Sequence record: MK373792.1
Origin: Escherichia phage vB_EcoS_VAH1
Reading direction: 5' to 3' (one strand)
DNA: 64,000 nucleotides
The first letter of the stretch is position 1; each line of letters starts with the position of its first letter. Of this stretch, positions 2,030 through 46,600 are shown piece after piece. Under the pieces are notes generated by a model. The model had not been told where the DNA came from, did not search any database, and was given only the letters and a program-made list of their open reading frames with translations. The translations under genes were made by a program, and so were the position numbers.

Positions 2030-2473
2030 TTAATTAAATTCGCCAGCAATCTGAGCAGCAGTACCACCATCATAACGCCCAGGAAATTCTTCCTTAATCG
2101 CTTTCATCAGCATACCTTTTGTAATTCCAGGGTTTAGCTTAACTAATTCTGCAAAGTATTTACGAATCTCAGTATCAGATAACTGAGGAGGCAGATACTC
2201 CTGCAACCACTTATTTAGAATGTATTCATACTGAGCGGACTGCAAGCTATAACTATCAAGATCTTGACCATGAAGTTTAGCTTTCATCTGGTTAATGCTT
2301 TTTAGTTGAGCTTTGAGATAAGACACAAATTGTTCAGAAGTGATGAAATCTTTATCAATACGCTGAAGATCCCCGATTATGGTCTGATAGCTTTTAGCGA
2401 CTTCTTTATCAGAACCATTAAACTTAGAATCCTGCAAAGCTCTACGCAAAACATCTAAAATATTCTCTTCCAT
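2030..2473 (-). CDS. Hypothetical early protein
   Basis: 147-aa ORF; its ATG overlaps the stop of the upstream small ORF (TAATG), suggesting translational coupling. Confidence 0.6.
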   Translation of the reverse strand: MEENILDVLRRALQDSKFNGSDKEVAKSYQTIIGDLQRIDKDFITSEQFVSYLKAQLKSINQMKAKLHGQDLDSYSLQSAQYEYILNKWLQEYLPPQLSDTEIRKYFAELVKLNPGITKGMLMKAIKEEFPGRYDGGTAAQIAGEFN

Positions 2474-2643
2474 TATTTCATTCCTAACGCTTGGTTAAAA
2501 GATTGTTCCGTCATAACTGCTGAGACTTTGGCGAAATCAAACTTTTTAGGGTTCGTAGTGATCTCAGCAACGTTAGAAGTTTTAACAGTTTTCGTAGTAC
2601 GAATACCGCGAGTGTTAACACCAATAATTACAACTGATTTCAT
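2473..2643 (-). CDS. Small hypothetical protein (~56 aa), absent from the ORF track
   Basis: ATG at 2643 preceded by GAGAGGAAG and by the promoter at 2675-2703; stop overlaps the next gene's ATG. Confidence 0.45.
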   Translation of the reverse strand: MKSVVIIGVNTRGIRTTKTVKTSNVAEITTNPKKFDFAKVSAVMTEQSFNQALGMK

Positions 2644-2674
2644 ATTTCGCTTCCTCTCATTAATTTATGGAAGT

Positions 2675-2703
2675 ATTATACGGAAATTTAAGTATTTAAG
2701 CAA
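2675..2703 (-). promoter_or_regulatory. T5-type early promoter (TTGCTT-N17-TATAAT)
   Basis: The -35 and -10 hexamers are spaced 17 nt apart on the - strand, about 30 nt upstream of the ATG at 2643. Confidence 0.55.
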
Positions 2704-2711
2704 GTAAATTT

Positions 2712-3161
2712 TTAAGTTTTAGTGACAACAGGTTTATAAAACGTATGTCCCTTAATCTTAGTTGTTTTCTTAAACTTCTTTGTCCAGTAAGGTTTATCTT
2801 TACCACTATGGAAGTATAGTGCTCCATATGTAGGATCTTGTGGTAAATCAACGTAGTATATCACTCTAGCTAAATTCTTAGCGGTTTGCCAAGCCTCATC
2901 AGTTTTATCAACTTTTGGTCTCTTAGATACCCAAGAGAACTGGTTAGACTGATATACTACTTTACAGTAGGAATCTGGGAATTTACCGGAGTTTACACGG
3001 TTTTTAGTAACGTGTGCAATCGCCGTCATTCCCTTTATGCCCTCACCACGACTTTCGAAATAGATATTTTTAGCAATGCAATCTATTTCTTTTGCATCGT
3101 GCGATGCCTGACTACTAAAGCTGAAGGTAAGGGCAGCTACTAAAAGCAAAGCTGCCTTCAT
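2712..3161 (-). CDS. Secreted cell-wall hydrolase (SleB/Hydrolase_2-like) with signal peptide
   Basis: ORF-track frame 2712..3179; likely start is the ATG at 3161 (MKAALLLVAALTFSFSSQA signal peptide, AGGAG 8 nt upstream); mature region has the FESRGEG motif typical of SleB-type hydrolases. Confidence 0.65.
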   Translation of the reverse strand: MKAALLLVAALTFSFSSQASHDAKEIDCIAKNIYFESRGEGIKGMTAIAHVTKNRVNSGKFPDSYCKVVYQSNQFSWVSKRPKVDKTDEAWQTAKNLARVIYYVDLPQDPTYGALYFHSGKDKPYWTKKFKKTTKIKGHTFYKPVVTKT

Positions 3162-3166
3162 TCTTT

Positions 3167-3484
3167 TTACTCCTGCCAATCATATTCAACACGATTGGGA
3201 TTTTCTTTATACCCTAAGTCAAGCAAATCATTACGCATATTTTGCTTAGCTACTGGGTTCGAGGTTACTAGTACCACTTTCTTTGGTCTCTGCCCAAATT
3301 CTAAGAGTAAGCGAAGAATTTGATAACCTTCCATACCATCTACAGCCAAGTCATTATCCATATAAACGAAATGGCCTGTGGTATCAGTTTTATTCAGAAA
3401 CTCTACAGCGGCTTCTGGGGTTCGAATGATAATGTCCATTCCGTGAAGATTACGCACATCATCAATCAAAATATGAAAAGTCAT
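3167..3484 (-). CDS. Stand-alone receiver (CheY-like REC)-like small protein
   Basis: 105 aa; the pattern ILIDD...YMDNDL...VVLVTSNP resembles the acidic pocket, phospho-acceptor Asp and conserved Thr of receiver domains; weak, by eye. Confidence 0.45.
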   Translation of the reverse strand: MTFHILIDDVRNLHGMDIIIRTPEAAVEFLNKTDTTGHFVYMDNDLAVDGMEGYQILRLLLEFGQRPKKVVLVTSNPVAKQNMRNDLLDLGYKENPNRVEYDWQE

Positions 3485-6833: not shown

Positions 6834-7322
6834 TTACATCTCAGCCATTTCAGCTTCAGTAATAACTGTGTTACACAATGCATCTACAGCTTCATTACCA
6901 CTAATACCAGAATGTCCTTTAACCTTAATAAAGGTAGGATTAGTATTGTGAAAGTTGATATACTGCTGTGTTAATTTAAATGCTTCCTGCCAAAGTTCTA
7001 GATTAAGAGGGACTTCACCATCTGCTTTCTTCCAGCCTTTCCTTTGCCAAGAAAACATCCAACTTTCCATACCATTTTTGCAATAAGCAGAGTCAGTATA
7101 GATAGCAATTGGTCTATTATCTTTTTTAACAGACCAACGTAGGGCTTCTACGATAGCTGTGAGTTCCATCTCATTATTTGTAGTTTTAGGATTATAACCA
7201 GATTTAGAACCTAAACGATCGTCGTTATCATCATAGACAATAAAACCCCAAGCACCTGGACCTGGATTAGACTTACAAGCACCATCTGTGTAAATGTGGA
7301 AAACCGACATTATACCTCCCAA
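6834..7322 (-). CDS. rnhA: Ribonuclease HI
   Basis: 162 aa; the pattern TDGACKSNPGPGAWG...ELTAI...YTDS...VKGHSGISGNE matches the RNase H catalytic Asp/Glu/Asp/His motifs. Confidence 0.9.
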   Translation of the reverse strand: MGGIMSVFHIYTDGACKSNPGPGAWGFIVYDDNDDRLGSKSGYNPKTTNNEMELTAIVEALRWSVKKDNRPIAIYTDSAYCKNGMESWMFSWQRKGWKKADGEVPLNLELWQEAFKLTQQYINFHNTNPTFIKVKGHSGISGNEAVDALCNTVITEAEMAEM

Positions 7323-7591
7323 CTAATTTTAAGACCCATGTCTACAAAGGCGGCTTCTCGGTAGTATTGTGAGAGATGATACCCCTTATCCGATAAGGTT
7401 TTTAGTACCGATTTAGCTGCTCCTGGCATTTCTCTAGGATTATATAGCCACCTAGCGTAAGGATTATCTCGAATAATTACTTCTGTATTTCCAGACTTAG
7501 CAGCTTCTACAATCTTTTCTTCTATAAACTTTAGAAATGCGGGTACTTCTGTTAATCCTGCAAGTTCTTGGGCTTCTTTGGCTGAAATCAT
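7310..7591 (-). CDS. Hypothetical protein
   Basis: 93-aa ORF overlapping the RNase H start (operon-like), downstream of the promoter at 7617-7645. Confidence 0.5.
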   Translation of the reverse strand: MISAKEAQELAGLTEVPAFLKFIEEKIVEAAKSGNTEVIIRDNPYARWLYNPREMPGAAKSVLKTLSDKGYHLSQYYREAAFVDMGLKISWEV

Positions 7592-10199: not shown

Positions 10200-10230
10200 T
10201 GATTTTCCTCTTTCTCACTATTTCAGGAAT

Positions 10231-10259
10231 ATTATAGCAAATCTGGTAGCGATTAGCAA
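10231..10259 (-). promoter_or_regulatory. T5-type early promoter (TTGCTA-N17-TATAAT) for nrdB
   Basis: Consensus hexamers on the - strand, about 30 nt upstream of the nrdB ATG. Confidence 0.6.
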
Positions 10260-10276
10260 GTAAAATTTCAAAGAAA

Positions 10277-10298
10277 AAGGAGACCCGAAGATCTCCTT
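10277..10298 (-). terminator. Hairpin terminator after nrdA
   Basis: Stem AAGGAGA/TCTCCTT; T-runs on both sides (GTTTTTATT on +, TTTCTTT on -). Confidence 0.5.
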
Positions 10299-10305
10299 GT
10301 TTTTA

Positions 10306-12979: not shown

Positions 12980-13741
12980 TTACACCTTCCCCATGTCTTT
13001 AAAAATATCGTAGAATGCTTTAGACTCAGCAGAACGAACGTTATCAATCAATTCGATCATTGAGAATGGAGCATTTTCATATTTCTCATAAACTTCCATA
13101 AGAAGTGCTAGACCTGAGTCACCTTTAATGTCTTTCTGAGCTATATCTCCGCAGATAATTAAACGGCAGTCTTGTCCTACACGAGTTAGGAGACAAACCA
13201 TTGCCTCAACGGAAATATTCTGAGCTTCATCGACAATTACATAGGAGTTGTTGAAAGTTCTGCCACGAGCATGTTCTATAGCCAAAAATTTAATTTTCTG
13301 ACGTTCGACATATCCCTTATATGCATGATCACCGATGGCCCATTTCATACCATCAGCTATTGGCTCTAACCAAGGCTCTAGCTTTTCTGCTAGATCACCA
13401 GGAAGCATACCAAGAGACTTACCTAGAGGTTCATTAGGACGTACGAGAATTACTTGCTCAATATCTGAGTGAATGTCTACGAGTTCCTGAGCTGCAAGAA
13501 CAGACGGGATAAAGGTTTTACCAGTACCTGGCTCTCCGATACCCACAGTCACTGTGTTGTTCTTGATCATATTGATATATGATTTTTGCTCGCGGTTTTT
13601 ACCTACTAGGGATTTAGCAACTGGATTAGCGTAATCATTAGAAAAATCAGCCTGAATTACGTTATTCTCATATTTGTTGCCACGCTTTCTTGAACCATTG
13701 CGGTTCTCTCTTTTTTGACGTGCTTTTCCCATAAATAACAC
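12980..13741 (-). CDS. phoH: PhoH-like ATPase
   Basis: 253 aa; Walker A GEPGTGKT, Walker B VIVDEAQN. Confidence 0.85.
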   Translation of the reverse strand: MLFMGKARQKRENRNGSRKRGNKYENNVIQADFSNDYANPVAKSLVGKNREQKSYINMIKNNTVTVGIGEPGTGKTFIPSVLAAQELVDIHSDIEQVILVRPNEPLGKSLGMLPGDLAEKLEPWLEPIADGMKWAIGDHAYKGYVERQKIKFLAIEHARGRTFNNSYVIVDEAQNISVEAMVCLLTRVGQDCRLIICGDIAQKDIKGDSGLALLMEVYEKYENAPFSMIELIDNVRSAESKAFYDIFKDMGKV

Positions 13742-13808
13742 TCCTATAGTGTACTTCGCTTCTAACAGAGGATCAACAAAGAGATCTTGTTTATCAACTT
13801 ACAAATAT

Positions 13809-13837
13809 ATTATAACAAGGTTTACAGCAAAAAGCAA
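13809..13837 (-). promoter_or_regulatory. T5-type early promoter (TTGCTT-N17-TATAAT) for phoH
   Basis: Consensus hexamers on the - strand in an AT-rich divergent promoter region. Confidence 0.55.
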
Positions 13838-14009
13838 GTATAATTTTAAATAAACCTATGATATTGCTTTTAAGTAAAAAATTTACTTGCTTATAAAGGT
13901 AGAAATATGATACTAGATAATCATTTATTTATATGTAAAAATACTATGCTGTATAGCATCAATAAAAATTGATAAAAATCAAAAGTCAAATAGTATTAGA
14001 AAAATGTAG

Positions 14010-14038
14010 TTGACGTATGGGGTGGAATTATGTATAAT
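14010..14038 (+). promoter_or_regulatory. Sigma70 promoter (TTGACG-N17-TATAAT)
   Basis: Near-perfect consensus 21 nt upstream of the ATG at 14060. Confidence 0.65.
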
Positions 14039-14059
14039 ATGTGAATTAGGGAGAATTTA

Positions 14060-14731
14060 ATGGTAAGAAAGAAAATAACTACAGAAGATGTGAACTTAGC
14101 ACTTGCTCCCAGAGGAATAATTATGCTAAGCACGTATATATCAGCTAAATCCAATGCTATATTTAAGTGCTCTAATGGGCATAGTTGGGAGGCTAGAGTA
14201 GATAATGTAAAAGGTGGGAGAGGTTGCCCTTATTGTGCTAGTCGTACTTTAGATCTTAAAGAGGTAAATGAATCCTTAGCTGCTCGTGGAATAAAGATGG
14301 AAGGTAAATACATCAATTCTAAGAGTAAAATTATGTTCAGCTGTGAGAATAATCATAGGTGGGAGTCTACACTTGATAGTGTTAGAAACCATAGTTCTGG
14401 TTGTCCTATATGTTTATTAGAGAAGGATAATTATCCTACTAACGTATATATTTTAATAAGTAATGTGGGAACCAAAATAGGAGTGTCTAGCAGAACTAAA
14501 GATAGACTCAGAGATATTAAAACTTCTTCTAACATACATGATTTAAAAATATTTAAGGAATATAGCTTTTCAGATAGATCAAAAGCTATACGTATTGAAA
14601 GAGAGGTCCATTTACAGTTTAAGGAATATAATTGTCAGTACAAAGATTTTGATGGTGCTACAGAATTTTTTAATATTGAGCCAGAAGTAGTAGCAAGGTT
14701 TATTGAGGAAATAATTAATGACAGAGAATGA
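14060..14731 (+). CDS. T5orf172-domain (GIY-YIG-like) protein with two N-terminal zinc ribbons; putative homing or nicking endonuclease
   Basis: 223 aa; two repeats of C-x3-H...C-P-x-C, then a T5orf172-like C-terminal domain; sits between phoH and nrdD. Confidence 0.6.
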   Translation: MVRKKITTEDVNLALAPRGIIMLSTYISAKSNAIFKCSNGHSWEARVDNVKGGRGCPYCASRTLDLKEVNESLAARGIKMEGKYINSKSKIMFSCENNHRWESTLDSVRNHSSGCPICLLEKDNYPTNVYILISNVGTKIGVSSRTKDRLRDIKTSSNIHDLKIFKEYSFSDRSKAIRIEREVHLQFKEYNCQYKDFDGATEFFNIEPEVVARFIEEIINDRE

Positions 14732-16544
14732 ATTAATTGAGAATTGCAAAGGTCTGCTCACTCTAACTGCGGATAAGGACTTACAGCATAATAATGCTAA
14801 TAAGCCTAGTGAGATGTTCCATACTCAAAGAGACTTATTAGCTGGGGAAATTAACAAGTATTTAGTATCGCAAGAATTACCTAAACACCTGTTAGACGCA
14901 CATAATCTAGGTAAAATACACATTCATGACATGGACTACAGAGCACAAGGGTACACCAACTGTTGCTTAGTAGATCTAGGCGGTATGCTGAAAAATGGCA
15001 CTAAAATTGGTAACGCAAATATTGAAACTCCTAAATCCATAACTACTGCATGCGCGATTACTGCTCAGATTATTGCTCAAGTATCGGGTGCTCAGTATGG
15101 TGGCACTTCTATTGATCGTATCGATGAGGTTTTAGCCCCCTATGTCAGAAAGTCTTATGATAAGCACCTGGGTCGTGGTCTACGTTGGCTCAAGGATGAA
15201 AGGAAAGCTGCTGTATATGCTACTGAACTTACTGAAAAAGAGTGTTATGATGCATTCCAAGCCCTAGAGTATGAAACTAATTCATTATTTAACTCTAACG
15301 GACAGACTCCTTTTGTTACGCTTGGCTTTGGGCTAGGACAGGGGTGGGAGGAAAGGATGATTCAGAAAGCCATCCTCCAAAACCGTATTAAAGGTTTAGG
15401 TGCTGCTGAGTCAACCCCTATCTTCCCTAAACTAGTATTCTCAGTTAAAGAAGGGTTAAATAAAAATCCAGGCGATCCTAACTATGATATAAAACAGCTA
15501 GCACTTGAGTGTTCTGCTACCCGTATGTACCCGGACTATTTAAGTTACGAGAAAGTTGTAGCTGTTACTGGTGATTTTAAAGCACCTATGGGTTGTCGTA
15601 GTTTTTTATCCGCTATTCCTTCTGGGGAAACTGCCGGCCGTAATAATCTGGGTGTAGTGTCTATTAATCTACCTATGGTTGCTGCTGAGGCAGATGGGGT
15701 TTTTGAAGATTTCTGGGATATTCTGGACAAATATGTGGATGAGGCTTTTGAAGCTCATGATTTTTTCTTGGATAGACTTAAGAAAGTGAAGGCTAAACAA
15801 GCCCCTATTCTTTATATGCACGGTGGTTTTGGTGTGCGTTTAGATGGGGAAGAGTATGTATGGCCAATTTTTGAGGGTAGATCTTCTGTATCTCTTGGGT
15901 ATATTGGGGTCTATGAGATGTGCCAAATAATGTTTAGTTTACCGCAGACTCATAGGGACTGTATTGAATTTACAGAGGAAGTTCTTACTCACCTAAAAAA
16001 TCGTTGCGAAGTTAAAGCTAATGAGACTAATCTTGGGTTTAGCTTGTATGCTACTCCTAGTGAGTCTCTATGTAATCGCTTTAATAAACTACTGGAACGT
16101 AGGTTCCCTGAGTATTCTTGGCTAACAGATAAAGGCTATCTCACTAATAGTCATCATTTGGACGTAAGGGAGAAGGTAGCTCCGGATACTAAATTTGAGT
16201 ATGAAGCTCATTTCACCAAAATAGCTAATGGTGGTAATATATCGTTTGTGGAACTACCACAAATGAAAAAGTTCCATAAAGCTCTTGAATACGTAGTAGA
16301 TAAGGGATTAGAATGTAGCCATTATATTGGTGTTAATATACCAATTGATGAGTGCTTCAACTGTGGGTATATGGGTGAATCTGTTGCCTCTGAACGTGGG
16401 TTTGTATGTCCAAGTTGTGGGTCTGAAGAAATAGAGGTTACACGTAGGGTTTGCGGGTACCTGGGATCCCCGGGCAGTAGGCCTTTCAATTCTGGGAAAC
16501 AAAAAGAAGTGCTTGGTAGAGTAAAACACTTAAATCTTAAGTAA
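14718..16544 (+). CDS. nrdD: Anaerobic ribonucleoside-triphosphate reductase
   Basis: 608 aa; C-terminal glycyl-radical motif TRRVCGYLG and a Cys-rich zinc ribbon (CFNCGY...CPSCGS). Confidence 0.9.
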   Translation: MTENELIENCKGLLTLTADKDLQHNNANKPSEMFHTQRDLLAGEINKYLVSQELPKHLLDAHNLGKIHIHDMDYRAQGYTNCCLVDLGGMLKNGTKIGNANIETPKSITTACAITAQIIAQVSGAQYGGTSIDRIDEVLAPYVRKSYDKHLGRGLRWLKDERKAAVYATELTEKECYDAFQALEYETNSLFNSNGQTPFVTLGFGLGQGWEERMIQKAILQNRIKGLGAAESTPIFPKLVFSVKEGLNKNPGDPNYDIKQLALECSATRMYPDYLSYEKVVAVTGDFKAPMGCRSFLSAIPSGETAGRNNLGVVSINLPMVAAEADGVFEDFWDILDKYVDEAFEAHDFFLDRLKKVKAKQAPILYMHGGFGVRLDGEEYVWPIFEGRSSVSLGYIGVYEMCQIMFSLPQTHRDCIEFTEEVLTHLKNRCEVKANETNLGFSLYATPSESLCNRFNKLLERRFPEYSWLTDKGYLTNSHHLDVREKVAPDTKFEYEAHFTKIANGGNISFVELPQMKKFHKALEYVVDKGLECSHYIGVNIPIDECFNCGYMGESVASERGFVCPSCGSEEIEVTRRVCGYLGSPGSRPFNSGKQKEVLGRVKHLNLK

Positions 16545-16551
16545 GCTAATC

Positions 16552-16589
16552 AGCCGGGTTGCTAGTCGACCTGGCTTTTATTTTATTTG
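16552..16589 (+). terminator. Rho-independent terminator after nrdD
   Basis: Stem AGCCGGG/CCTGGCT followed by TTTTATTTTATTT; overlaps the -35 of the next promoter. Confidence 0.5.
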
Positions 16590-16615
16590 CTTTCAGCCAA
16601 AAATTTATATATAAT
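16587..16615 (+). promoter_or_regulatory. PN25-like strong early promoter (TTGCTT-N17-TATAAT, then AGATTTATAAATTTGAGAGGAG)
   Basis: Resembles the T5 N25 promoter as I recall it, including the downstream CATAAAT-like region and GAGAGGAG ribosome-binding site. Confidence 0.65.
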
Positions 16616-16643
16616 AGATTTATAAATTTGAGAGGAGAAAGCT

Positions 16644-16925
16644 ATGAGCGAATTGCTTCCTAAAGTAGATGTCTCCCATCTTGGGGAGCCTAGTGAAGAA
16701 CGTAAGGCTCTAGATTGGTTGGGCGGATTTGATTATCGTCGTGTTGTTGCAACATGGAATGATAAGAAAGTTAAGAAGTTTCGGGTACATTATGTAGGTA
16801 AAGACAAGTGGCTCTGGATTGATTATGAAGAATCGAAGGGGTCTACTAAGGCTGTGAAAATTTATCGTATGTATGGGTATTATTATGCTCACTGTGATAA
16901 GAATGAATTTACAGTACAGAACTAA
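16644..16925 (+). CDS. Hypothetical protein
   Basis: 93-aa ORF with GAGAGGAG ribosome-binding site; first gene after the PN25-like promoter. Confidence 0.55.
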   Translation: MSELLPKVDVSHLGEPSEERKALDWLGGFDYRRVVATWNDKKVKKFRVHYVGKDKWLWIDYEESKGSTKAVKIYRMYGYYYAHCDKNEFTVQN

Positions 16926-16934
16926 GGAACAAGA

Positions 16935-17138
16935 ATGAAAAACGTAAAACATCTTAAATATCGCTTAATTTACAACGGACGTATGGAAACAGAAGATCTG
17001 GCCCAGTTAGCTATTAATTCTAATGAGGTTACAGTGCGTGCGCTGGCAATTGAAAAGTTGCGTGCCTCTTATGAAAATCGTGTTATGGAACTAGAGGAGA
17101 AACTTTATGGCATTCTCGAAGCCGATGCTACCAGATAA
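16935..17138 (+). CDS. Hypothetical protein
   Basis: 67-aa ORF with AAGGAA ribosome-binding site. Confidence 0.5.
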   Translation: MKNVKHLKYRLIYNGRMETEDLAQLAINSNEVTVRALAIEKLRASYENRVMELEEKLYGILEADATR

Positions 17139-17328
17139 GGGTTTAAACGCCGCTTTGGAAAACGCATTAATGCAGCACTGGGAAACTGGCTATAAGGATG
17201 GTGTTGAATCCTGCGCTACTATGCTAGAAGTTATTGCTAATACCTTAATGGAGAAAGGCAATAAAGAATTAGCTGAGCTATTAGACAGTATTGGGCAAAA
17301 CTTCAGAGAACAGGTGAAAAATGCGTAG
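17107..17328 (+). CDS. Hypothetical protein
   Basis: 73-aa ORF with GGAG ribosome-binding site; overlaps both neighbours. Confidence 0.5.
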   Translation: MAFSKPMLPDKGLNAALENALMQHWETGYKDGVESCATMLEVIANTLMEKGNKELAELLDSIGQNFREQVKNA

Positions 17329-18136
17329 ATTAATTGTTATTAGCGGTGCAGGTTTGAGTGTTGAAAGTGGTGTACGAGCTTTTCGTACTGATACTGCTAG
17401 TGGTAAAGCATTGTGGGATGATTATGACTTAGAAGAGGTATGTAATATTCATGCCTTTCGTGGTAATTTTTATCATAAAACCCACACGTTTTACAACAAA
17501 CGTCGTGAAGAGTTAGAAACTGTTGAACCCAATCTTGCACACTTGCGTATTGGTGAATGGTATAAGAAATATCCAGGTCAAGTAGTAAACTTGACTACCA
17601 ACGTTGATGACCTTATTGAGCGTGCTGGCGTTCCACATAGTGACATTCTGCACATTCATGGGTATTTAAAAGAGGTTGTTGTAGCTGATAGCTACAATAG
17701 TAGTAATAAACGAATTATTGATGTTGGGTATAGCTCTATTGACCCAGATGATTATAAATGGGTTAAACCTAATGTAATCTTCTTCGGGGAACATGCTCCA
17801 GCATATGCAGAAATGTACAATGTTTTTGATGGTATTACCAGTCAAGATATGATCATTGTGGTTGGTTGCTCTAACCAAGTAATTAACTTCTACTGGGAAT
17901 TATTTCCTGTTCTTAATCTGACTGCTGCAAAACTTATGGTAGTTAACTACTATGATAGTGCTCTAGCGGTGGAACCAGGCTATCAAGGTATGACTCGTAG
18001 TGAGATGTACCAGCTGGAAGAACGTGGTATCCCTTACTGGAGTAAAGGTGCGATAGATGCTTTCAATGATCCTGATTTTATTGCTCGTGTAGAAGCTCAT
18101 TTAGAGGGTAGACCTTATGTGTCGGGAAATAAGTAA
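17321..18136 (+). CDS. Sir2-family (sirtuin-like) NAD-dependent protein lacking the zinc-ribbon module
   Basis: 271 aa; GAGLSVESGVRAFR (NAD-binding), TTNVDDLIERAG, catalytic HIHG, PNVIFFGE, VVGCS; no CxxC...CxxC. Confidence 0.8.
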   Translation: MRRLIVISGAGLSVESGVRAFRTDTASGKALWDDYDLEEVCNIHAFRGNFYHKTHTFYNKRREELETVEPNLAHLRIGEWYKKYPGQVVNLTTNVDDLIERAGVPHSDILHIHGYLKEVVVADSYNSSNKRIIDVGYSSIDPDDYKWVKPNVIFFGEHAPAYAEMYNVFDGITSQDMIIVVGCSNQVINFYWELFPVLNLTAAKLMVVNYYDSALAVEPGYQGMTRSEMYQLEERGIPYWSKGAIDAFNDPDFIARVEAHLEGRPYVSGNK

Positions 18137-19462: not shown

Positions 19463-19553
19463 TTTTTATTAGCTGAAGTTTGTAATCCGGGCTATTAGTG
19501 CTCGGATTATTACATAATCTTTCTAGTCGATTGACAGTCAAAATAAATTGTCG

Positions 19554-19584
19554 TTGACAATTTGGATGGATTATGTAATAATAT
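19554..19584 (+). promoter_or_regulatory. Putative promoter (TTGACA with AT-rich -10) upstream of the HNH gene
   Basis: Two TTGACA hexamers (about 19531 and 19554); the -10 is imperfect (TAATAA/TAATAT). Confidence 0.35.
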
Positions 19585-19601
19585 ATGTATTGGAGGTGAG
19601 G

Positions 19602-20054
19602 ATGTCATTCACACAGCAAGAACTTTTAGATAACTTCCGATATGAAGATGGTAAGTTATTTAGAACTACAGGAAGAAATGCAGGGAAAGAATGTTGTGTC
19701 TCTACTGGTAACGGATATTATCGTATATCTCTAGGGAATAGGACTATGCTTCGGCATAGAGCAATATTTTTAATGCATCATGGATACTTACCTGATTTAG
19801 TAGATCATGTGAATACTGTAAAAGGTGATGATCGTATTGAAAATCTTAGAGAGCAGACAGTATCCGGTAATCTAAGAAATATCAAATATAAGAAAGGAAT
19901 GCATGTTTACCCTTCTGGTAGTAATAACTGGCAAGTAGTATTTACTATTAACCGTAAACGTATAGTTAAAGGAACATATGACAACTATGAGGTTGCATGT
20001 TCTATGGCCAAGATGTTTAGAGGTCAACTATACGGTAGGGAATCAATCCAGTAA
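19602..20054 (+). CDS. HNH homing endonuclease (HNH_3/AP2-like)
   Basis: Start moved to the ATG at 19602 (GGAGGT ribosome-binding site); HNH region RHRAIFLMHHGYLPDLVDHVN. Confidence 0.8.
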   Translation: MSFTQQELLDNFRYEDGKLFRTTGRNAGKECCVSTGNGYYRISLGNRTMLRHRAIFLMHHGYLPDLVDHVNTVKGDDRIENLREQTVSGNLRNIKYKKGMHVYPSGSNNWQVVFTINRKRIVKGTYDNYEVACSMAKMFRGQLYGRESIQ

Positions 20055-32605: not shown

Positions 32606-35173
32606 TTGAAAATCGCAGTAGTTGATAAAGCTCTAAATAACACTCGTTATGATAAACATTTCCAGCTATACGGCGAGGAAGTTGATGTATTCCATATGTG
32701 TAACGAGAAGTTGTCCGGTCGTTTGCTCAAAAAGCATATTACTATAGGGACTCCGGAAAACCCATTTGACCCGAATGATTATGATTTTGTTATACTGGTA
32801 GGTGCCGAACCTTTCCTGTACTTTGCAGGTAAGAAAGGTATTGGTGATTATACTGGTAAACGTGTAGAGTATAATGGATATGCTAACTGGATTGCGAGTA
32901 TCAGCCCAGCCCAGTTACACTTTAAACCTGAAATGAAACCAGTTTTTGATGCAACAGTAGAGAATATCCACGATATTATCAATGGTCGTGAGAAGATTGC
33001 AAAAGCTGGTGATTACCGTCCTATTACTGACCCTGATGAGGCAGAAGAATATATCAAGATGGTGTATAATATGGTTATCGGACCTGTCGCATTCGACTCC
33101 GAAACCTCAGCACTATACTGTCGAGATGGTTATCTACTTGGTGTTTCTATATCTCACCAAGAGTATCAGGGTGTATATATCGATTCTGATTGCCTCACAG
33201 AGGTTGCAGTATATTACCTCCAGAAAATCCTGGATAGTGAAAACCACACTATTGTTTTTCACAACTTGAAGTTTGATATGCACTTTTATAAGTACCATCT
33301 GGGACTTACTTTTGATAAAGCACATAAAGAACGCAGGCTCCATGATACCATGTTGCAGCACTATGTTCTAGATGAACGTCGTGGTACTCATGGCTTGAAA
33401 TCTCTAGCAATGAAGTATACCGATATGGGTGACTATGACTTTGAACTAGATAAGTTCAAAGATGATTACTGCAAAGCACATAAAATCAAGAAAGAAGATT
33501 TCACCTATGATTTAATTCCGTTTGATATTATGTGGCCTTACGCTGCGAAAGATACAGATGCCACCATACGTTTGCACAACTTCTTCTTACCAAAGATTGA
33601 GAAGAATGAAAAACTTTGCAGTCTGTATTACGATGTTTTGATGCCTGGTTGCGTATTCTTGCAACGTGTTGAAGATCGTGGTGTACCTATTTCTATCGAT
33701 CGTTTAAAAGAAGCTCAGTATCAGTTAACCCATAATCTGAATAAAGCCCGTGAGAAACTGTACACTTATCCAGAAGTTAAACAGCTAGAACAAGATCAGA
33801 ATGAAGCGTTTAACCCGAACTCTGTTAAGCAGCTGCGCGTTCTTCTGTTTGATTACGTTGGCTTAACTCCAACAGGTAAACTGACGGATACTGGAGCAGA
33901 TTCTACAGATGCAGAAGCTCTGAATGAGCTGGCTACGCAGCATCCAATTGCTAAAACTCTACTAGAGATTCGTAAGCTGACTAAGCTGATCTCTACTTAT
34001 GTTGAGAAGATTCTACTGAGTATTGATGCAGATGGTTGCATTCGTACTGGTTTCCATGAACATATGACTACTTCTGGTCGTCTGAGTTCTTCTGGTAAAC
34101 TGAACCTGCAACAGCTACCTCGTGATGAATCTATTATCAAGGGTTGTGTAGTTGCACCACCTGGATACCGTGTAATCGCGTGGGACTTAACAACTGCGGA
34201 AGTTTACTATGCTGCTGTTCTATCTGGGGATAGAAATATGCAACAGGTATTTATCAACATGAGAAATGAACCCGATAAATACCCAGACTTCCACTCTAAC
34301 ATCGCCCACATGGTATTTAAATTGCAATGTGAACCTCGTGATGTTAAGAAGCTGTTCCCAGCTCTACGTCAGGCAGCTAAGGCAATTACCTTTGGTATTT
34401 TGTATGGTTCTGGCCCGGCTAAAGTAGCACATTCTGTTAACGAAGCATTGCTCGAACAAGCAGCCAAAACTGGGGAACCGTTTGTTGAATGTACTGTTGC
34501 AGATGCTAAAGAGTACATTGAGACTTACTTTGGTCAATTCCCACAGCTTAAGCGTTGGATTGATAAGTGCCACGATCAGATCAAGAATCATGGATTTATC
34601 TATAGTCACTTTGGTCGTAAACGTCGTCTGCATAATATCCATTCCGAAGACCGTGGTGTTCAGGGTGAAGAAATTCGTTCTGGATTTAACGCAATCATTC
34701 AGTCTGCTTCTTCTGATAGTCTCCTTTTAGGTGCTGTAGATGCAGATAATGAGATCATTTCTCTTGGTTTAGAACAAGAGATGAAGATTGTTATGTTGGT
34801 TCATGACTCCGTAGTTGCTATTGTTCGTGAGGATTTGATCGACCAATACAATGAAATCCTGATTCGTAATATTCAGAAAGACCGTGGTATCAGTATTCCT
34901 GGCTGTCCGATTGGTATTGATTCAGATTCTGAAGCCGGGGGTTCTCGTGACTATTCTTGTGGTAAGATGAAGAAACAGCACCCATCAATTGCTTGTATTG
35001 ATGATGATGAATATACTCGTTACGTTAAAGAAATGCTACTTGATGCAGATTTCGAGTATAAGAAACTAGCTGCGATGGATAAAGAGCATCCAGACCACAG
35101 CAAGTACAAGGATGATAAGTTTATTGCTGTATGTAAAGATCTGGATAACGTGAAAAGGATTCTCGGTGCTTAA
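32606..35173 (+). CDS. DNA polymerase, family A (T5-type, 855 aa), TTG start
   Basis: 855 aa from a TTG with AAGAGGAG ribosome-binding site; N-terminal 3'-5' exonuclease and C-terminal Pol I-like polymerase domains. Confidence 0.9.
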   Translation: MKIAVVDKALNNTRYDKHFQLYGEEVDVFHMCNEKLSGRLLKKHITIGTPENPFDPNDYDFVILVGAEPFLYFAGKKGIGDYTGKRVEYNGYANWIASISPAQLHFKPEMKPVFDATVENIHDIINGREKIAKAGDYRPITDPDEAEEYIKMVYNMVIGPVAFDSETSALYCRDGYLLGVSISHQEYQGVYIDSDCLTEVAVYYLQKILDSENHTIVFHNLKFDMHFYKYHLGLTFDKAHKERRLHDTMLQHYVLDERRGTHGLKSLAMKYTDMGDYDFELDKFKDDYCKAHKIKKEDFTYDLIPFDIMWPYAAKDTDATIRLHNFFLPKIEKNEKLCSLYYDVLMPGCVFLQRVEDRGVPISIDRLKEAQYQLTHNLNKAREKLYTYPEVKQLEQDQNEAFNPNSVKQLRVLLFDYVGLTPTGKLTDTGADSTDAEALNELATQHPIAKTLLEIRKLTKLISTYVEKILLSIDADGCIRTGFHEHMTTSGRLSSSGKLNLQQLPRDESIIKGCVVAPPGYRVIAWDLTTAEVYYAAVLSGDRNMQQVFINMRNEPDKYPDFHSNIAHMVFKLQCEPRDVKKLFPALRQAAKAITFGILYGSGPAKVAHSVNEALLEQAAKTGEPFVECTVADAKEYIETYFGQFPQLKRWIDKCHDQIKNHGFIYSHFGRKRRLHNIHSEDRGVQGEEIRSGFNAIIQSASSDSLLLGAVDADNEIISLGLEQEMKIVMLVHDSVVAIVREDLIDQYNEILIRNIQKDRGISIPGCPIGIDSDSEAGGSRDYSCGKMKKQHPSIACIDDDEYTRYVKEMLLDADFEYKKLAAMDKEHPDHSKYKDDKFIAVCKDLDNVKRILGA

Positions 35174-43654: not shown

Positions 43655-46600
43655 CTATACCTTATTTGCTAGTAGAGAATTAACTACTAGGGTTAGGTCT
43701 GCAATTTGCTTTTTAAGATCAGATACTTCTGATTCTAGGGCTGAGATCCTGCTATCAGATTCTCTGCCTGCCTGTACTAATAGACCTGTTATAGCCGCAT
43801 AGTCAACAGAATAGAAACGTTCCTCACCAACTAGTTGCTCACCAGTAAGTGTAGGCCCTTCAAGATCTGTATATTTTGTAAACCCACTTACAGCTTCAGG
43901 TAGAGCTTCCATTACTTCCTGAGCTATAACACCAGCGTAAGGTAGCCCATTTTCCTTAAGGGTATAAGTATAGCCTTTCATTTTACGCAATGATTCAGTG
44001 GCGTTTTGGATTTCCTCAATATTATCCTTCAGATCTCTATCGGATGACTGGGTAATGTTTGTTGCTTCAACTTTTCCATTAACATTAAAAACACGGGATC
44101 CATCAGAGCTTTGCTGAGCATAAAACAAATAACCATCTGATAGCTTACATTCAACAACAGAGGGCCTCCCAGTAGTATTACCCCATAGCAAGATAGTAGC
44201 ACTTTTTGCGGCTGTCTGATTATTTTCGTAACTAAACGTCCTACCATTACCCCGCCGTACAACCACTGCAGATCCATCAGCAAATATACCCCCATTATAA
44301 TTAGGAGTTCTTAATGTGATATTATCGCTTACAGTTAGAGTACTGCTATTCATATCGTTATGTATGATAACATCCTTAGCAGCCCCACCTTTCCCCACAT
44401 ACCACAGTCTACCAGAATCTGTTCTACATGCTAAATAGCCAACTTGAGACGTATCGGTTCCGGTAAGTCTTATCGATAAGGCCTCACCAGCTTTAGTTAT
44501 CGAAACAGGCACACCAAAATCAGCAAATTTATCTGTAATTAATCTGTTCCATGCCCCAATAGTACCACCATCAATACTTCTAGCCCAGAATTTAGATCCA
44601 CGACCTGCAAACTGGGTAGCATAATTACCGCTAAACCCTACATGGATACCACCATATACAACATTGTTTTCCGGAGTATTAACTTGACCAGCAATACCAT
44701 AAAACTTATTGACAGTGTTATGTTGTGTATTCCAGTCTACACCAGTAGAAGATAGAATACCAGAAGGAGCTGAAAAAGTTCCTTCTTTATTGAAGTTAAA
44801 GAATTGATGGTTAATTCCTGCTGGATCTCTAACAATAACCTGACCAGCATTTTCACTAGCTCTAAACTCTGCACCATATATTGTATCTCCCACTCTATAC
44901 CTAGAATAGAAGGTGGCATTAGATACAGATATACCATCAGCAATAACACCATTACCAGCCGCTATAGTACCACTAAAAGTAATCTTAGGAGCATATAAAG
45001 ACAGTTCGTCCCCGACGTTCATACCGTTAGAAAGAACTATACGCTCACCATTTCCTATGTAATAGTTCCCTTCCGTTGTTGCTTGATAGAAACCTATACG
45101 GTTTAAAGAAAAATCAAACATAGTAAGAACATCAGTTGAATCTGTTGCAGGATTAGCGGTCCCCCATGCGTAAGTTGTATTTTTATACGTAAAGTTTGAC
45201 GTTGGTACAGTTACTTCACAGAATGCAGGAACACGTAGCTGAACAGGAAAACCACGGGCCTCAATATAAATTGCAACATATCTTTCAGCATCTTTGGAAG
45301 AAGAAAGAATACATTTCATTGCAATCTCACTTCTCGCATAGTTATTGAAGTACCCGTACCCACCATCTTTACGATCACTCCAGCCCCCGCACCTAATAAA
45401 GCCATTGAAGCTACAACAGTTCATAGGGTCATTGCCAGTAGAGGATCGTGTTTTTATATCAATAAAAGCACCAGAGGCATATAGTGAACGGTAAGCAAGA
45501 TCAATAATGACAGGATAATACTTTCCATCTTCAACACCAGCAGGTGCATTAAGTGTTACCCATTCACCACCACCTATAGAGGGTATCTGGAGGTTATTTT
45601 TTGCTTCTGATATAGAGCGGCCACCGGTACCTCCTTGTCCTACTGCAAGAGGTATATATGATCTATTCTCTATATCATAAGCTCCCCAAAGTTTACCACT
45701 AGTAATAATGATTTTAGCATTATTACCTGGGTTTAACAGTTGGGTCTCAGAGCTAAGCTGTACAAGCCTATTTACATCATCTATTCTAGCATTTTTTGTC
45801 CATAAAGGGCCGCTTTCTGGTCTCCAACGATATGAGTATATTGCTTTAGTGGACGAGCCTACAAATAAGCCTGCAAATGAAGGTACACCATCAGTACCTG
45901 AAATAAATCCTGTAAGAACTGTTTCACCTACTGCTATACTAGGAAAACCTGTAGCCGTTTCATATATTCTTAGAAACCCCAGGAAATTGGAGGGATTACC
46001 AGAAATATCTGGACAATCCCTTGGGGAATCCCCAAGACCGATAGAAGCTTTCATACCAGAAGCTACATTTTCAGCTTTAGTAGCAGATGCCGCCGCATTA
46101 GTTTCTGATGTTTTAGCATTGGTTTCTGATGCTTTAGCAGCATTAGCACTGTTAGCAGCAGCATTTTTACTATTATTAGCATTAGTTTCTGAAGTTTTAG
46201 CCGCAGCAGCCGAAGCACTGGCATTAGTTTCTGATGTTTTAGCTGCTGAAGCAGAAGCAGCCGCAGCAGTTTTGCTACTATTAGCATTGGTTTCTGAGGT
46301 TTTAGCTGCGGTTTCACTAGCCTTTGCTTTAGTTTCTGAAGTTTTAGCAGCAGTTTCACTAGCTTTTGCATTAGTTTCAGAAGTTTTTGCAGCTTTAGCG
46401 CTATTAGCAGAAGCAGTAGCAGAAGAAGCAGACTGAGTTGCAGACTGCTGAGAAGATGCCGCAGAAATTTCTGCTTCATTTTCAGAATCTTTGGCATTTA
46501 GCTCCGACTGTTTTGCATTAATTTCAGATTGCTTAGCTGCTGCAGCAGATGCTTTAGAAGACTCTATAGCAGAGACTAGCTCTCCTGCTGTAATAGAGCT

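What the first reader, a model, noticed from the sequence alone, without database searches (positions are those of the whole stretch)
14060..14731. T5orf172-domain protein with duplicated zinc-ribbon N-terminus, under its own consensus promoter between phoH and nrdD
Two C-x3-H...C-P-x-C zinc-ribbon repeats precede a T5orf172 (GIY-YIG-like) domain. This is the architecture of a sequence-specific DNA endonuclease or DNA-binding factor, not a metabolic enzyme, and it sits inside a nucleotide-metabolism cluster as homing endonucleases typically do. It could be a homing enzyme, or a site-specific nicking enzyme of the kind expected for T5-type nicked genomes.
Basis: partly seen in the sequence, partly recalled or inferred. 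Interest (0 to 1): 0.45.

Follow-up and report, generated by a model that had tools for sequence, protein, structure and literature searches.

The report
Homing endonuclease gene upstream of nrdD
This is an ordinary selfish "homing endonuclease" gene of a class already described in T5-like phages. It sits in front of the anaerobic ribonucleotide reductase gene, shows clear signs of having jumped between related phages, and is not the enzyme that nicks T5 DNA.

Summary
Window 14060-14731 (+) is an intact 223-aa ORF with two tandem C-x3-H...C-P-x-C zinc-finger modules (Pfam DUF4379 and CapR) and a C-terminal T5orf172 domain. An AlphaFold model of that domain matches GIY-YIG nucleases. The ORF lies between phoH and nrdD, behind a TTGACG-17-TATAAT promoter. 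That promoter is not private: it drives ORF plus nrdD as one operon, and the ORF's stop overlaps the nrdD start by 14 nt.

Comparative evidence supports the homing reading.
- About 350 of 445 related records, T5 included, lack the ORF here.
- 20 records carry this allele and 27 carry a 45%-identical three-finger allele. Others carry a third allele or deletion remnants.
- The same allele sits in front of two nrdD alleles that are only 57-60% identical in protein.
- Phages rutana (filled) and rokbiter (empty) are 98-100% identical except for this cassette, with a flanking tract of mismatches that decays with distance.
- A ~1 kb block is 98-100% identical between genera whose flanks are ~90% identical.
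- dN/dS is about 0.2.

The T5-nickase idea fails. T5 is nicked yet lacks the gene, the sci nicking genes map to the late region, and a different late gene is annotated as the nickase.

The class is published (Barth et al. 2023). Interest is low.

The parts
13765..13937 (.). Left flank of the exchanged block: the phoH-proximal spacer, which includes the leftward phoH promoters. It exists in two haplotypes, and one of them travels with the endonuclease cassette.
   Evidence: Window, ESCO40, SelmaRatti, rutana and NG_A1 share one haplotype. T5, DT57C, HildyBeyeler and rokbiter share the other. The rutana/rokbiter difference starts just upstream of the phoH start codon.
13927..14725 (+). Mobile cassette proper: allele-specific spacer, promoter, RBS, the endonuclease ORF and the first ~5 codons of nrdD.
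   Evidence: Sequence shared with endonuclease-free T5 ends after GATAATCATTT (window 13926). Sequence shared with the type B allele ends at 13933. The right junction is at the nrdD start. The cassette is 93-100% identical in phages with either nrdD allele.
14010..14038 (+). Sigma-70-type promoter TTGACG-17-TATAAT that drives the endonuclease-nrdD operon.
   Evidence: 11/12 match. The -35 and -10 hexamers are invariant across types A, B and T5 in alignment A6. T5 annotates the equivalent site as the nrdD promoter.
14048..14054 (+). Shine-Dalgarno sequence AGGGAGA for the endonuclease.
   Evidence: Read from the sequence; six nt before the ATG at 14060.
14060..14731 (+). Endonuclease ORF, 223 aa (called type A here).
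   Evidence: All five type A alleles examined are intact, with dN/dS 0.17-0.20 between sublineages. GC is 32.9% against 38.8% for the window.
14060..14245 (+). Zinc-finger module 1 (residues 1-62); ligands C37, H41, C56, C59.
   Evidence: Pfam DUF4379/CapR; conserved ligands; model pLDDT 90-94 over residues 11-50.
14246..14422 (+). Zinc-finger module 2 (residues 63-121); ligands C95, H99, C115, C118.
   Evidence: Pfam DUF4379/CapR second stretch, residues 80-118; conserved ligands; internal repeat 25/64 identical to module 1.
14435..14722 (+). T5orf172 / GIY-YIG-like nuclease domain (residues ~126-221). Invariant residues: Y130, K139, G141, R149, E180, G199, E202.
14705..14731 (+). Overlap region: the nrdD Shine-Dalgarno GAGGA (14705-14709) and the nrdD ATG (14718) lie inside the 3' end of the endonuclease ORF, whose stop is at 14729-14731.
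   Evidence: Read from the sequence. This 3' segment survives in the decayed alleles of HildyBeyeler and DT57C.
14718..16544 (+). nrdD, a divergent allele co-transcribed with the endonuclease.
   Evidence: Pfam NRDD E 3e-157. It is 57-60% aa identical to T5-type NrdD. Only 50 records carry this allele.
16552..16576 (+). Intrinsic terminator that ends the operon.
12980..13741 (-). phoH, the divergently transcribed left neighbour.
   Evidence: Pfam PhoH E 1e-61; 99% identical to T5 phoH.

Best explanation
The ORF is a free-standing homing endonuclease gene of the T5orf172 class, which belongs to the GIY-YIG superfamily.

Proposed mechanism, with shown and inferred steps marked:
1. Shown from sequence: it is transcribed early, from the sigma-70 promoter it shares with nrdD.
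2. Inferred: its two tandem treble-clef zinc-finger modules ('beads on a string') bind an extended asymmetric DNA site. The C-terminal GIY-YIG-like domain, tethered by a short flexible linker, cuts nearby, as I-TevI does.
3. Inferred: in a co-infection with a T5-like phage that lacks the gene, it cuts the rival's phoH-nrdD junction. The best guess for the target is sequence spanning the 5' end of the endonuclease-free nrdD and its promoter, which the cassette replaces in carrier genomes. Recombinational repair from the carrier genome then copies in the cassette and variable lengths of flank.
4. Shown: the gene moves. Filled, empty, replaced and decayed alleles exist. The same allele occurs in two nrdD backgrounds and in two genera. 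There are graded co-conversion tracts with different end points.

Not shown: nuclease activity, the cut site, and whether the cut is a double-strand break or a nick.

The cassette also supplies the promoter, ribosome-binding site and first codons of nrdD. This explains why decayed alleles keep both of its ends.
For: Architecture:
- Pfam DUF4379 x2, CapR x2 and T5orf172, all above their curated cutoffs; PHROG 681 'endonuclease' E 4e-50.
- Zinc ligands and Y130/K139/G141/R149/E180/E202 are invariant in 21 homologues.
- A T5orf172 protein (ICP1 Odn) cleaves DNA in vitro, and mutating its conserved Glu abolishes cleavage (PMC8263062).
- CapR-type zinc fingers bind DNA, and this depends on the conserved Cys residues (bioRxiv 10.1101/2020.11.28.402263).

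Mobility:
- The allele is present in 20 records.
- A 45%-identical three-finger allele is present in 27 records, with internal-deletion remnants in 8 or more.
- A third allele is found in EH7.
- T5 and the roughly 350 records that match its nrdD 5' region lack the ORF here.
- The same allele lies upstream of window-type nrdD and of T5-type nrdD.
- rutana and rokbiter are 98-100% identical over 5.7 kb except for the cassette. Mismatches are dense in the first ~90 nt of nrdD and sparse out to +740 nt; the next 1,680 nt have none.
- NG_A1 (Tequintavirus) and rutana (Epseptimavirus) have ~90% identical flanks but a 98-100% identical block of ~1 kb.
- Crossover end points differ among rutana, YZU-L1 and NG_A1.

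Function retained: all type A alleles are intact, with dN/dS 0.17-0.20. GC is lower than the genome.

Literature: T5orf172 homing endonuclease genes with repeated CapR-like zinc fingers are reported as enriched in T5-like phages, and 33% of their neighbourhoods contain ribonucleotide reductase genes (PMC10448857).
Against: - There is no biochemical evidence for this protein or for any close relative. No solved structure of a relative exists.
- The target site is only inferred. NG_A1 and YZU-L1 carry the gene next to nrdD 5' sequence that looks like the endonuclease-free form from about +0 or +30 nt onward. If the site lay entirely inside nrdD, they would cut themselves.
- The comparative pattern shows recombinational mobility of the block. 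It does not prove that this protein's own cleavage drives that mobility.
- The record counts include GenBank/RefSeq duplicates.
Confidence: 0.8

Rival explanations
1. It is the site-specific nickase that introduces the single-strand interruptions typical of T5-type genomes.
For: GIY-YIG enzymes cut one strand at a time, and T5-like virion DNA carries sequence-specific nicks, which are annotated in T5.
Against: - T5 has the nicks but no ORF between phoH and nrdD.
- Only 20 of ~445 related records carry this allele.
- sciA and sciB, the nicking genes, map to the late region (PMC3517423). This gene is in the early region.
- A conserved late gene next to the terminase (the T5.153 orthologue) is the one annotated 'nicking endonuclease'. 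It is not in this window.
Confidence: 0.02
2. It is a domesticated DNA-binding regulator, like the satellite repressor CapR or like I-TevI autorepression. On this reading it controls the nrdD/phoH divergent promoter region and no longer acts as a mobile nuclease.
For: - CapR-homology domains are present, and CapR is a proven transcriptional repressor derived from such endonucleases (bioRxiv 10.1101/2020.11.28.402263).
- The gene sits immediately downstream of a strong promoter in a divergent promoter region.
- It is under purifying selection.
Against: - The nuclease domain is complete, with all its motif residues invariant. CapR, by contrast, is known through its DNA-binding region.
- Most relatives express nrdD without this gene.
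- The gene shows recent horizontal movement and decay remnants, which is the life cycle of a selfish element.
Confidence: 0.06
3. It is a weapon rather than a homing device: a nuclease aimed at competing phages, satellites or host DNA (like ICP1 Odn). Its spread would then come from the benefit it gives the carrier, not from self-copying at its own cut site.
For: - Odn is a T5orf172 nuclease that was repurposed against a satellite (PMC8263062).
- There is a weak PADLOC hit to candidate defence family PDC-S57 (E 2e-4).
- The target site has not been shown.
Against: - The DNA-binding part consists of the generic zinc-finger modules of the endonuclease family, not a captured replication-initiator domain as in Odn.
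- Three divergent alleles and their remnants occupy exactly the same site. The filled/empty pair shows a co-conversion gradient centred on the gene. That is the signature of homing at this locus.
- Marker exclusion of rival phages is in any case a by-product of homing.
Confidence: 0.08
4. It is an inactive relic that survives only because its 3' end carries the nrdD ribosome-binding site and start codon.
For: Decayed alleles (HildyBeyeler, DT57C) keep exactly the promoter and the 3' end. This shows that those parts are what nrdD needs.
Against: - The window's copy is full length with every conserved residue.
- dN/dS is 0.17-0.20 across intact alleles.
- It transferred between genera recently.
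Confidence: 0.03

Closest known systems
T5orf172-class homing endonuclease genes with CapR/DUF723/DUF4397-type zinc-finger repeats (ICP1 gp165, gp174 and others; T5-like, Plateaulake and VpaJT-like phages), described by Barth, Dunham & Seed 2023 (PMC10448857)
   Same: - N-terminal tandem zinc-finger modules plus a C-terminal T5orf172 nuclease.
- Free-standing gene next to an essential gene; ribonucleotide reductase genes occur in 33% of their neighbourhoods.
- Explicitly reported as enriched in T5-like phages.
- Allele turnover and domain-number variation (two fingers here, three in type B).
   Different: - The main text read here does not describe this particular allele or the phoH|nrdD site in T5-like phages.
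- The ligand pattern here is C-x3-H...C-P-x-C, whereas CapR is reported as CxxC...CxC.
- No member with this architecture has had its cut site mapped.
T5 paralogues T5.154 (between the large terminase and T5.153/portal) and T5.141 (between the tape measure gene and the tail chaperone)
   Same: T5.154 is 36% identical over the full length, with the same architecture of two fingers plus T5orf172. T5.141 is 27% identical and has two CapR modules. Both are sporadic among T5-like phages.
   Different: They sit at different loci, in the late region, and presumably have different targets. The window's copy is in the early region and is co-transcribed with nrdD.
ICP1 Odn (Gp88), an origin-directed T5orf172 nuclease (PMC8263062)
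   Same: It has a T5orf172 catalytic domain with a conserved Arg and Glu. This is the experimental proof that the domain cleaves DNA.
   Different: Odn's DNA-binding part is a captured RepA_N domain aimed at a satellite's replication origin, not zinc-finger repeats. It acts in defence rather than homing.
T4 free-standing GIY-YIG endonucleases (the Seg proteins) and I-TevI
   Same: - A GIY-YIG-fold catalytic domain joined by a linker to a modular DNA-binding region that includes a zinc finger.
- Intronless homing with co-conversion of flanking markers.
- A preference for nucleotide-metabolism genes.
   Different: - The nuclease sits at the C-terminus here and at the N-terminus in I-TevI and the Seg proteins.
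- The second motif is K-I-G rather than Y-I-G.
- The DNA-binding modules are unrelated.
- There is no detectable sequence similarity: Pfam GIY-YIG was not hit.
PLE CapR (satellite-encoded capsid-operon repressor)
   Same: It shares the zinc-finger DNA-binding domain family (Pfam CapR homology).
   Different: CapR acts as a repressor. The window protein keeps a complete nuclease domain and behaves as a mobile element.

Membership tests
Pfam T5orf172 (PF10544), GIY-YIG clan | Match to the family HMM above the curated gathering score | tested here: met
   44.0 bits against a cutoff of 20, E 3.2e-11, residues 120-218 covering profile positions 6-100 of 101. The sister family MUG113 scores 42 bits against 22.3.
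Pfam T5orf172 (PF10544), GIY-YIG clan | GIY-YIG-type alpha/beta fold (three-stranded sheet flanked by helices) | tested here: met
Pfam T5orf172 (PF10544), GIY-YIG clan | Catalytic residues conserved (Tyr of motif 1, Arg in helix 1, Glu in helix 2) | tested here: met
   Y130, R149 and E180 are invariant in 21 homologues, as are K139, G141, G199 and E202. Their equivalence to I-TevI Y6/R27/E75 is inferred from position in the secondary structure, not from a structure-based alignment.
Pfam T5orf172 (PF10544), GIY-YIG clan | Metal-dependent DNA cleavage | not testable with these tools
   Shown only for the distant relative Odn (PMC8263062).
DUF4379 / CapR treble-clef zinc-finger DNA-binding modules | Match to the family HMMs above the gathering scores, in tandem | tested here: met
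   DUF4379 scores 53.4 bits against 24.5 with two stretches. CapR scores 34.8 against 24.2 with two stretches.
DUF4379 / CapR treble-clef zinc-finger DNA-binding modules | Four conserved zinc ligands per module | tested here: met
   C37/H41/C56/C59 and C95/H99/C115/C118 are invariant or at least 90% conserved. The pattern is Cys-His-Cys-Cys, not the four Cys reported for CapR.
DUF4379 / CapR treble-clef zinc-finger DNA-binding modules | Zinc binding and sequence-specific DNA binding | not testable with these tools
   Shown for CapR by Cys-to-Ser mutants (bioRxiv 10.1101/2020.11.28.402263).
Free-standing homing endonuclease gene | Presence/absence polymorphism at one defined site among close relatives | tested here: met
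   20 records carry type A and 27 carry type B. Remnants occur in 12 or more, and there is a third allele in EH7. About 350 records, T5 included, lack it. Near-isogenic filled/empty pair: rutana and rokbiter.
Free-standing homing endonuclease gene | Co-conversion of flanking markers, decaying with distance, with variable end points | tested here: met
   In rutana versus rokbiter, mismatches are dense to +90 nt and sparse to +740 nt of nrdD; the following 1,680 nt are identical. The crossover points in YZU-L1, NG_A1 and rutana differ.
Free-standing homing endonuclease gene | Horizontal spread independent of genome background | tested here: met
   The same allele sits next to two nrdD alleles. 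A ~1 kb block is 98-100% identical between a Tequintavirus and an Epseptimavirus whose flanks are ~90% identical.
Free-standing homing endonuclease gene | The encoded enzyme cuts the gene-less allele near the insertion site, and carrier genomes are immune | not testable with these tools
   Only a candidate region can be named: the promoter and 5' end of the endonuclease-free nrdD, which the cassette replaces in carriers.
T5-type genome nickase (sci function) | Present in the phages known to carry the nicks (T5) | tested here: not met
   T5 has no ORF between phoH and nrdD, and its best paralogue is only 36% identical and lies elsewhere.
T5-type genome nickase (sci function) | Maps to the late region, where sciA and sciB were placed | tested here: not met
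   The gene lies in the early nucleotide-metabolism cluster behind a sigma-70 promoter. The sci mapping is as cited in PMC3517423. The gene annotated as the nickase is the T5.153 orthologue.

The most novel reading that the evidence does not exclude
The cassette may be more than a parasite. It supplies the promoter, ribosome-binding site and first codons of an essential-type gene (nrdD). It is also always linked, intact or as a remnant, to a divergent nrdD allele that is 57-60% identical in protein. At least four different endonuclease genes compete for the same ~1 kb spacer.

The most novel reading not excluded is this. The phoH|nrdD junction could be a hot spot where rival zinc-finger-array endonucleases with two or three shuffled modules are in an arms race over one target. 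That race would drive wholesale replacement of nrdD alleles across T5-like genera, as an 'endonuclease island' with cargo. The ~58-aa modules would then form a modular, recombinable DNA-recognition code.
Probability: 0.2. Interest if true: 0.45.

Novelty: already known. Interest (0 to 1): 0.15.

Why it matters
It matters little as a discovery. Near-identical genes are already deposited and annotated 'endonuclease' or 'putative homing endonuclease'. The class (T5orf172 nuclease with repeated CapR-like zinc fingers, enriched in T5-like phages and next to ribonucleotide reductase genes) was described in 2023.

The work done here has three practical uses:
- It removes the attractive but wrong link to the T5 nicks.
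- It identifies a natural, nearly isogenic filled/empty pair (rutana and rokbiter) and a candidate target region. These would make this enzyme an easy first case for mapping the cut site and recognition rules of a zinc-finger-array T5orf172 endonuclease.
- It documents the phoH|nrdD spacer as a hot spot of gene turnover that anyone comparing or engineering T5-like therapeutic phages should expect.

Tried and rejected
- Sequence searches of solved structures with the protein and with a 21-sequence profile: nothing significant, only a weak DUF4379 hit at E 0.43.
- NCBIfam: no family. PADLOC: one weak hit, E 2e-4, to an uncharacterised candidate family; not pursued.
- The word-indexed homologue search with the single protein gave only 6 hits. 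The exhaustive representative search (13,746 hits) and a profile search were needed.
- Rfam scan of 12.5-17.8 kb found no RNA family, so there is no sign of an intron or ribozyme context.
- Repeat search around the cassette found no terminal repeats or target-site duplication, so it is not a transposon.
- Paralogues in the window: none.
- Nickase idea: followed through the T5 annotation, the T5 paralogues, the sci literature and the 'nicking endonuclease' annotation, then rejected. Rhoades 1984 (PMC254472) is not held, so the sci mapping is cited second-hand. One search hit for 'sciA' was only reference-list noise.
- Pinning the target site from fixed differences between carrier and non-carrier nrdD 5' ends was inconclusive. 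Carriers differ among themselves in that segment because their crossover points differ.

Full report
**What is there**

Window 14060-14731 (+) is an intact 223-aa ORF with a good Shine-Dalgarno sequence (AGGGAGA, 14048-14054). It has three parts.
- Residues 1-62 and 63-121 are two copies of one ~60-aa module, 25/64 identical to each other. Each copy carries C-x3-H ... C-P-x-C: C37/H41/C56/C59 and C95/H99/C115/C118.
- Pfam calls both copies DUF4379 ('probable treble clef zinc finger', E 3e-14) and CapR homology domain (E 1.9e-8).
- Residues 120-218 match T5orf172 (E 3.2e-11) and MUG113. All these hits are above their curated cutoffs. PHROG 681 'endonuclease' scores E 4e-50.

The neighbours are phoH on the minus strand (12980-13741) and nrdD (14718-16544). 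They lie in a cluster with nrdA, nrdB, thymidylate synthase and dihydrofolate reductase. The window comes from a T5-like phage. The closest complete record is Escherichia phage ESCO40, a Tequintavirus, at 97% over this locus.

**Promoter and operon**

TTGACG-17-TATAAT at 14010-14038 is the best promoter-like site in the region, with 11/12 matches. It is not private to the ORF, for four reasons.
- No terminator lies before 16552-16576, which is after nrdD.
- The ORF's stop (14729-14731) overlaps the nrdD ATG (14718).
- The nrdD Shine-Dalgarno (GAGGA, 14705-14709) lies inside the ORF.
- In T5, which lacks the ORF, the equivalent promoter is annotated as the nrdD promoter.

The -35 and -10 hexamers are the only invariant blocks across the three allele types in that spacer. 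The unit is promoter - ORF - nrdD - terminator.

**Fold and catalytic residues**

An AlphaFold2 model built on 21 homologues has mean pLDDT 87.5. Its pTM is low (0.47), as expected for three domains on flexible linkers; the residue blocks 111-120 and 121-130 average pLDDT 68 and 77.

In the family alignment, Y130, K139, G141, R149, E180, G199 and E202 are invariant. The eight zinc ligands are invariant or at least 90% conserved. By position in the beta-beta-alpha-beta-alpha topology, Y130, R149 and E180 correspond to the Tyr, Arg and Glu of GIY-YIG enzymes. This equivalence is inferred.

No relative has a solved structure. A distant T5orf172 protein, ICP1 Odn, cleaves DNA in vitro, and mutating its conserved Glu abolishes cleavage (PMC8263062). 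CapR-type fingers bind DNA in a Cys-dependent way (bioRxiv 10.1101/2020.11.28.402263).

**The locus in relatives**

Of 445 phage records that match the phoH-nrdD stretch (the counts include GenBank/RefSeq duplicates):
- 20 carry this allele, called type A here, at 94-98% nucleotide identity.
- 27 carry a different allele, type B: 301 aa as annotated, three finger modules, 45% local (34% global) protein identity to type A. The BASEL collection annotates it 'putative homing endonuclease'.
- HildyBeyeler and seven other records keep only the first codons and the last ~50 codons of type B. DT57C and Gostya9 are decayed further.
- EH7 has a third allele, type C, 222 aa and 45% identical.
- KKP_3831 has a fourth family member just downstream of nrdD.
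- gmork has an HNH/AP2-like endonuclease gene on the opposite strand of the same spacer.
- T5 and the roughly 350 records that match its nrdD 5' region have no such ORF there.

All decayed alleles retain the promoter and the 3' end that carries the nrdD ribosome-binding site. This is what one expects if the cassette has become the expression signal for nrdD.

**Evidence of movement**

1. Type A sits in front of two nrdD alleles. One is the window's allele, 57-60% identical in protein to T5-type NrdD and present in only 50 records. The other, in rutana, NG_A1 and YZU-L1, is the T5-type allele.
2. NG_A1 (Tequintavirus) and rutana (Epseptimavirus) are ~90% identical in their flanks. They are 98-100% identical in a ~1 kb block running from the phoH start to the nrdD start.
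3. rutana (filled) and rokbiter (empty) come from the same study and are 98-100% identical across 5.7 kb except for the spacer and cassette. To the right, mismatches are dense and mostly silent in the first ~90 nt of nrdD and sparse out to +740 nt. The following 1,680 nt have none. This is a classical co-conversion gradient.
4. The crossover points differ: about +0 nt in NG_A1, about +30 nt in YZU-L1, and at least +90 nt in rutana. These were therefore separate events.
5. At codon level, endonuclease-free NrdD begins MNRNDELKYKEMQS|LIRNCK, while carriers begin MNKDE|LIRNCK. The cassette replaces the native promoter and the first 14 codons.
6. Type A alleles are all intact, with dN/dS 0.17-0.20. 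GC is 32.9% against 38.8% for the window.

No terminal repeats, target duplication or RNA element flank the cassette.

**Mechanism proposed**

The gene is a free-standing homing endonuclease gene. It is expressed early together with nrdD. The two finger modules read an extended site, and the tethered GIY-YIG-like domain cuts nearby. In mixed infection the endonuclease-free allele is cut and then repaired from the carrier genome.

The movement is shown. The nuclease activity, the nature of the cut and the site are inferred. The best candidate for the site is sequence spanning the endonuclease-free promoter and nrdD 5' end, which is absent from carriers. A site wholly inside nrdD is unlikely, because NG_A1 and YZU-L1 carry nrdD 5' sequence that looks like the endonuclease-free form.

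**The nickase idea**

- T5 carries the annotated nicks but not this ORF.
- The allele is rare among relatives.
- sciA and sciB were mapped to the late region (PMC3517423).
- A conserved 145-aa Cys/His-rich late gene next to the terminase, T5.153, is the one annotated 'nicking endonuclease'. It is not in the window.
- T5 does have two paralogues of the window protein in its late region: T5.154 (36% identical, same architecture) and T5.141 (27% identical). They too are sporadic.

The nickase reading is rejected for this gene.

**Comparison with what is known**

Barth, Dunham & Seed 2023 (PMC10448857) describe T5orf172 homing endonuclease genes with repeated CapR/DUF723/DUF4397 zinc fingers. They report these as enriched in T5-like phages, with 33% of neighbourhoods containing ribonucleotide reductase genes, and as showing allele turnover and 'islands' that carry essential cargo. 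This ORF fits that description in every tested respect.

It works like the T4 Seg proteins and I-TevI (modular binder plus GIY-YIG cutter, intronless homing). It is not a member of their sequence family, and its domain order is reversed.

Near-identical proteins are already deposited and annotated 'endonuclease' (for example NC_031042).

**Verdict**

The feature is real, the homing interpretation is well supported and the nickase interpretation is refuted. It is a known kind of element, and interest is low (0.15). The locus does offer a convenient natural filled/empty pair for the first cut-site mapping of a zinc-finger-array T5orf172 endonuclease.

Noticed in passing
window 13900-17320: The whole block (promoter, endonuclease gene, nrdD and three small ORFs) is a divergent island relative to T5. 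The NrdD here is only 57-60% identical in protein to T5-type NrdD, while phoH on the left is 99% identical and Sir2 on the right about 95%. This nrdD allele occurs in only 50 phage records, always with a T5orf172 endonuclease gene or its remnant upstream. The next closest NrdD (72%) is in a Klebsiella T5-like phage.
   Followed up: partly
window 19548-20054 (+): A 168-aa ORF with an HNH_3 endonuclease domain (E 3e-11) lies in a segment with no counterpart at this position in T5. It is probably a second, unrelated homing endonuclease gene.
   Followed up: partly
window 10200-10305: nrdB and nrdA are adjacent here. T5 has the HNH endonuclease gene hegH (T5.095) between them, and SelmaRatti has an intein in nrdA. 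Endonuclease content around the reductase genes varies from phage to phage.
   Followed up: no
L010 (T5) 33777-34529 and 43773-44606; L018 2165-2602: T5 has two late-region paralogues with the same architecture of zinc fingers plus nuclease: T5.141 and T5.154. T5.154 abuts T5.153, a 145-aa Cys/His-rich ORF annotated 'nicking endonuclease' in BASEL phages and in PMC10194208. Pfam finds no domain in T5.153.
   Followed up: partly
L014 (gmork) 2415-2906, minus strand; L012 (KKP_3831) 2501-3187; L011 (EH7) 2495-3163: The phoH-nrdD neighbourhood is an endonuclease hot spot. There is an HNH/AP2-like gene on the opposite strand in gmork, a third T5orf172 allele upstream of nrdD in EH7, and a fourth family member just downstream of nrdD in KKP_3831.
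   Followed up: partly
protein family: The ~58-aa zinc-finger module matches 13,746 cluster representatives at E <= 0.001. Many are long proteins with up to about 12 tandem copies and no T5orf172 domain. This is a large, little-studied family of repeat arrays.
   Followed up: no
window 7310-7591 (-): A 93-aa ORF with no Pfam match lies in a ~300-bp segment that does not align with T5 (7-29% identity). The sequence on both sides is 90-100% identical to T5.
   Followed up: no
public records MG065692 and OR848434: Records named 'Campylobacter phage C13' and 'Listeria phage LM 4-14-1' contain this T5-like locus at 92-99% identity. Mislabelled hosts or contaminating coliphage or Salmonella phage seem likely.
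   Followed up: no
L005 (T5) nrdD, about 15962-17686: The T5 reference nrdD lacks ~48 codons that are present in the window's nrdD and in other T5-type alleles: 575 aa against 615-624 aa. This is either a strain-specific deletion or an assembly or annotation issue.
   Followed up: no
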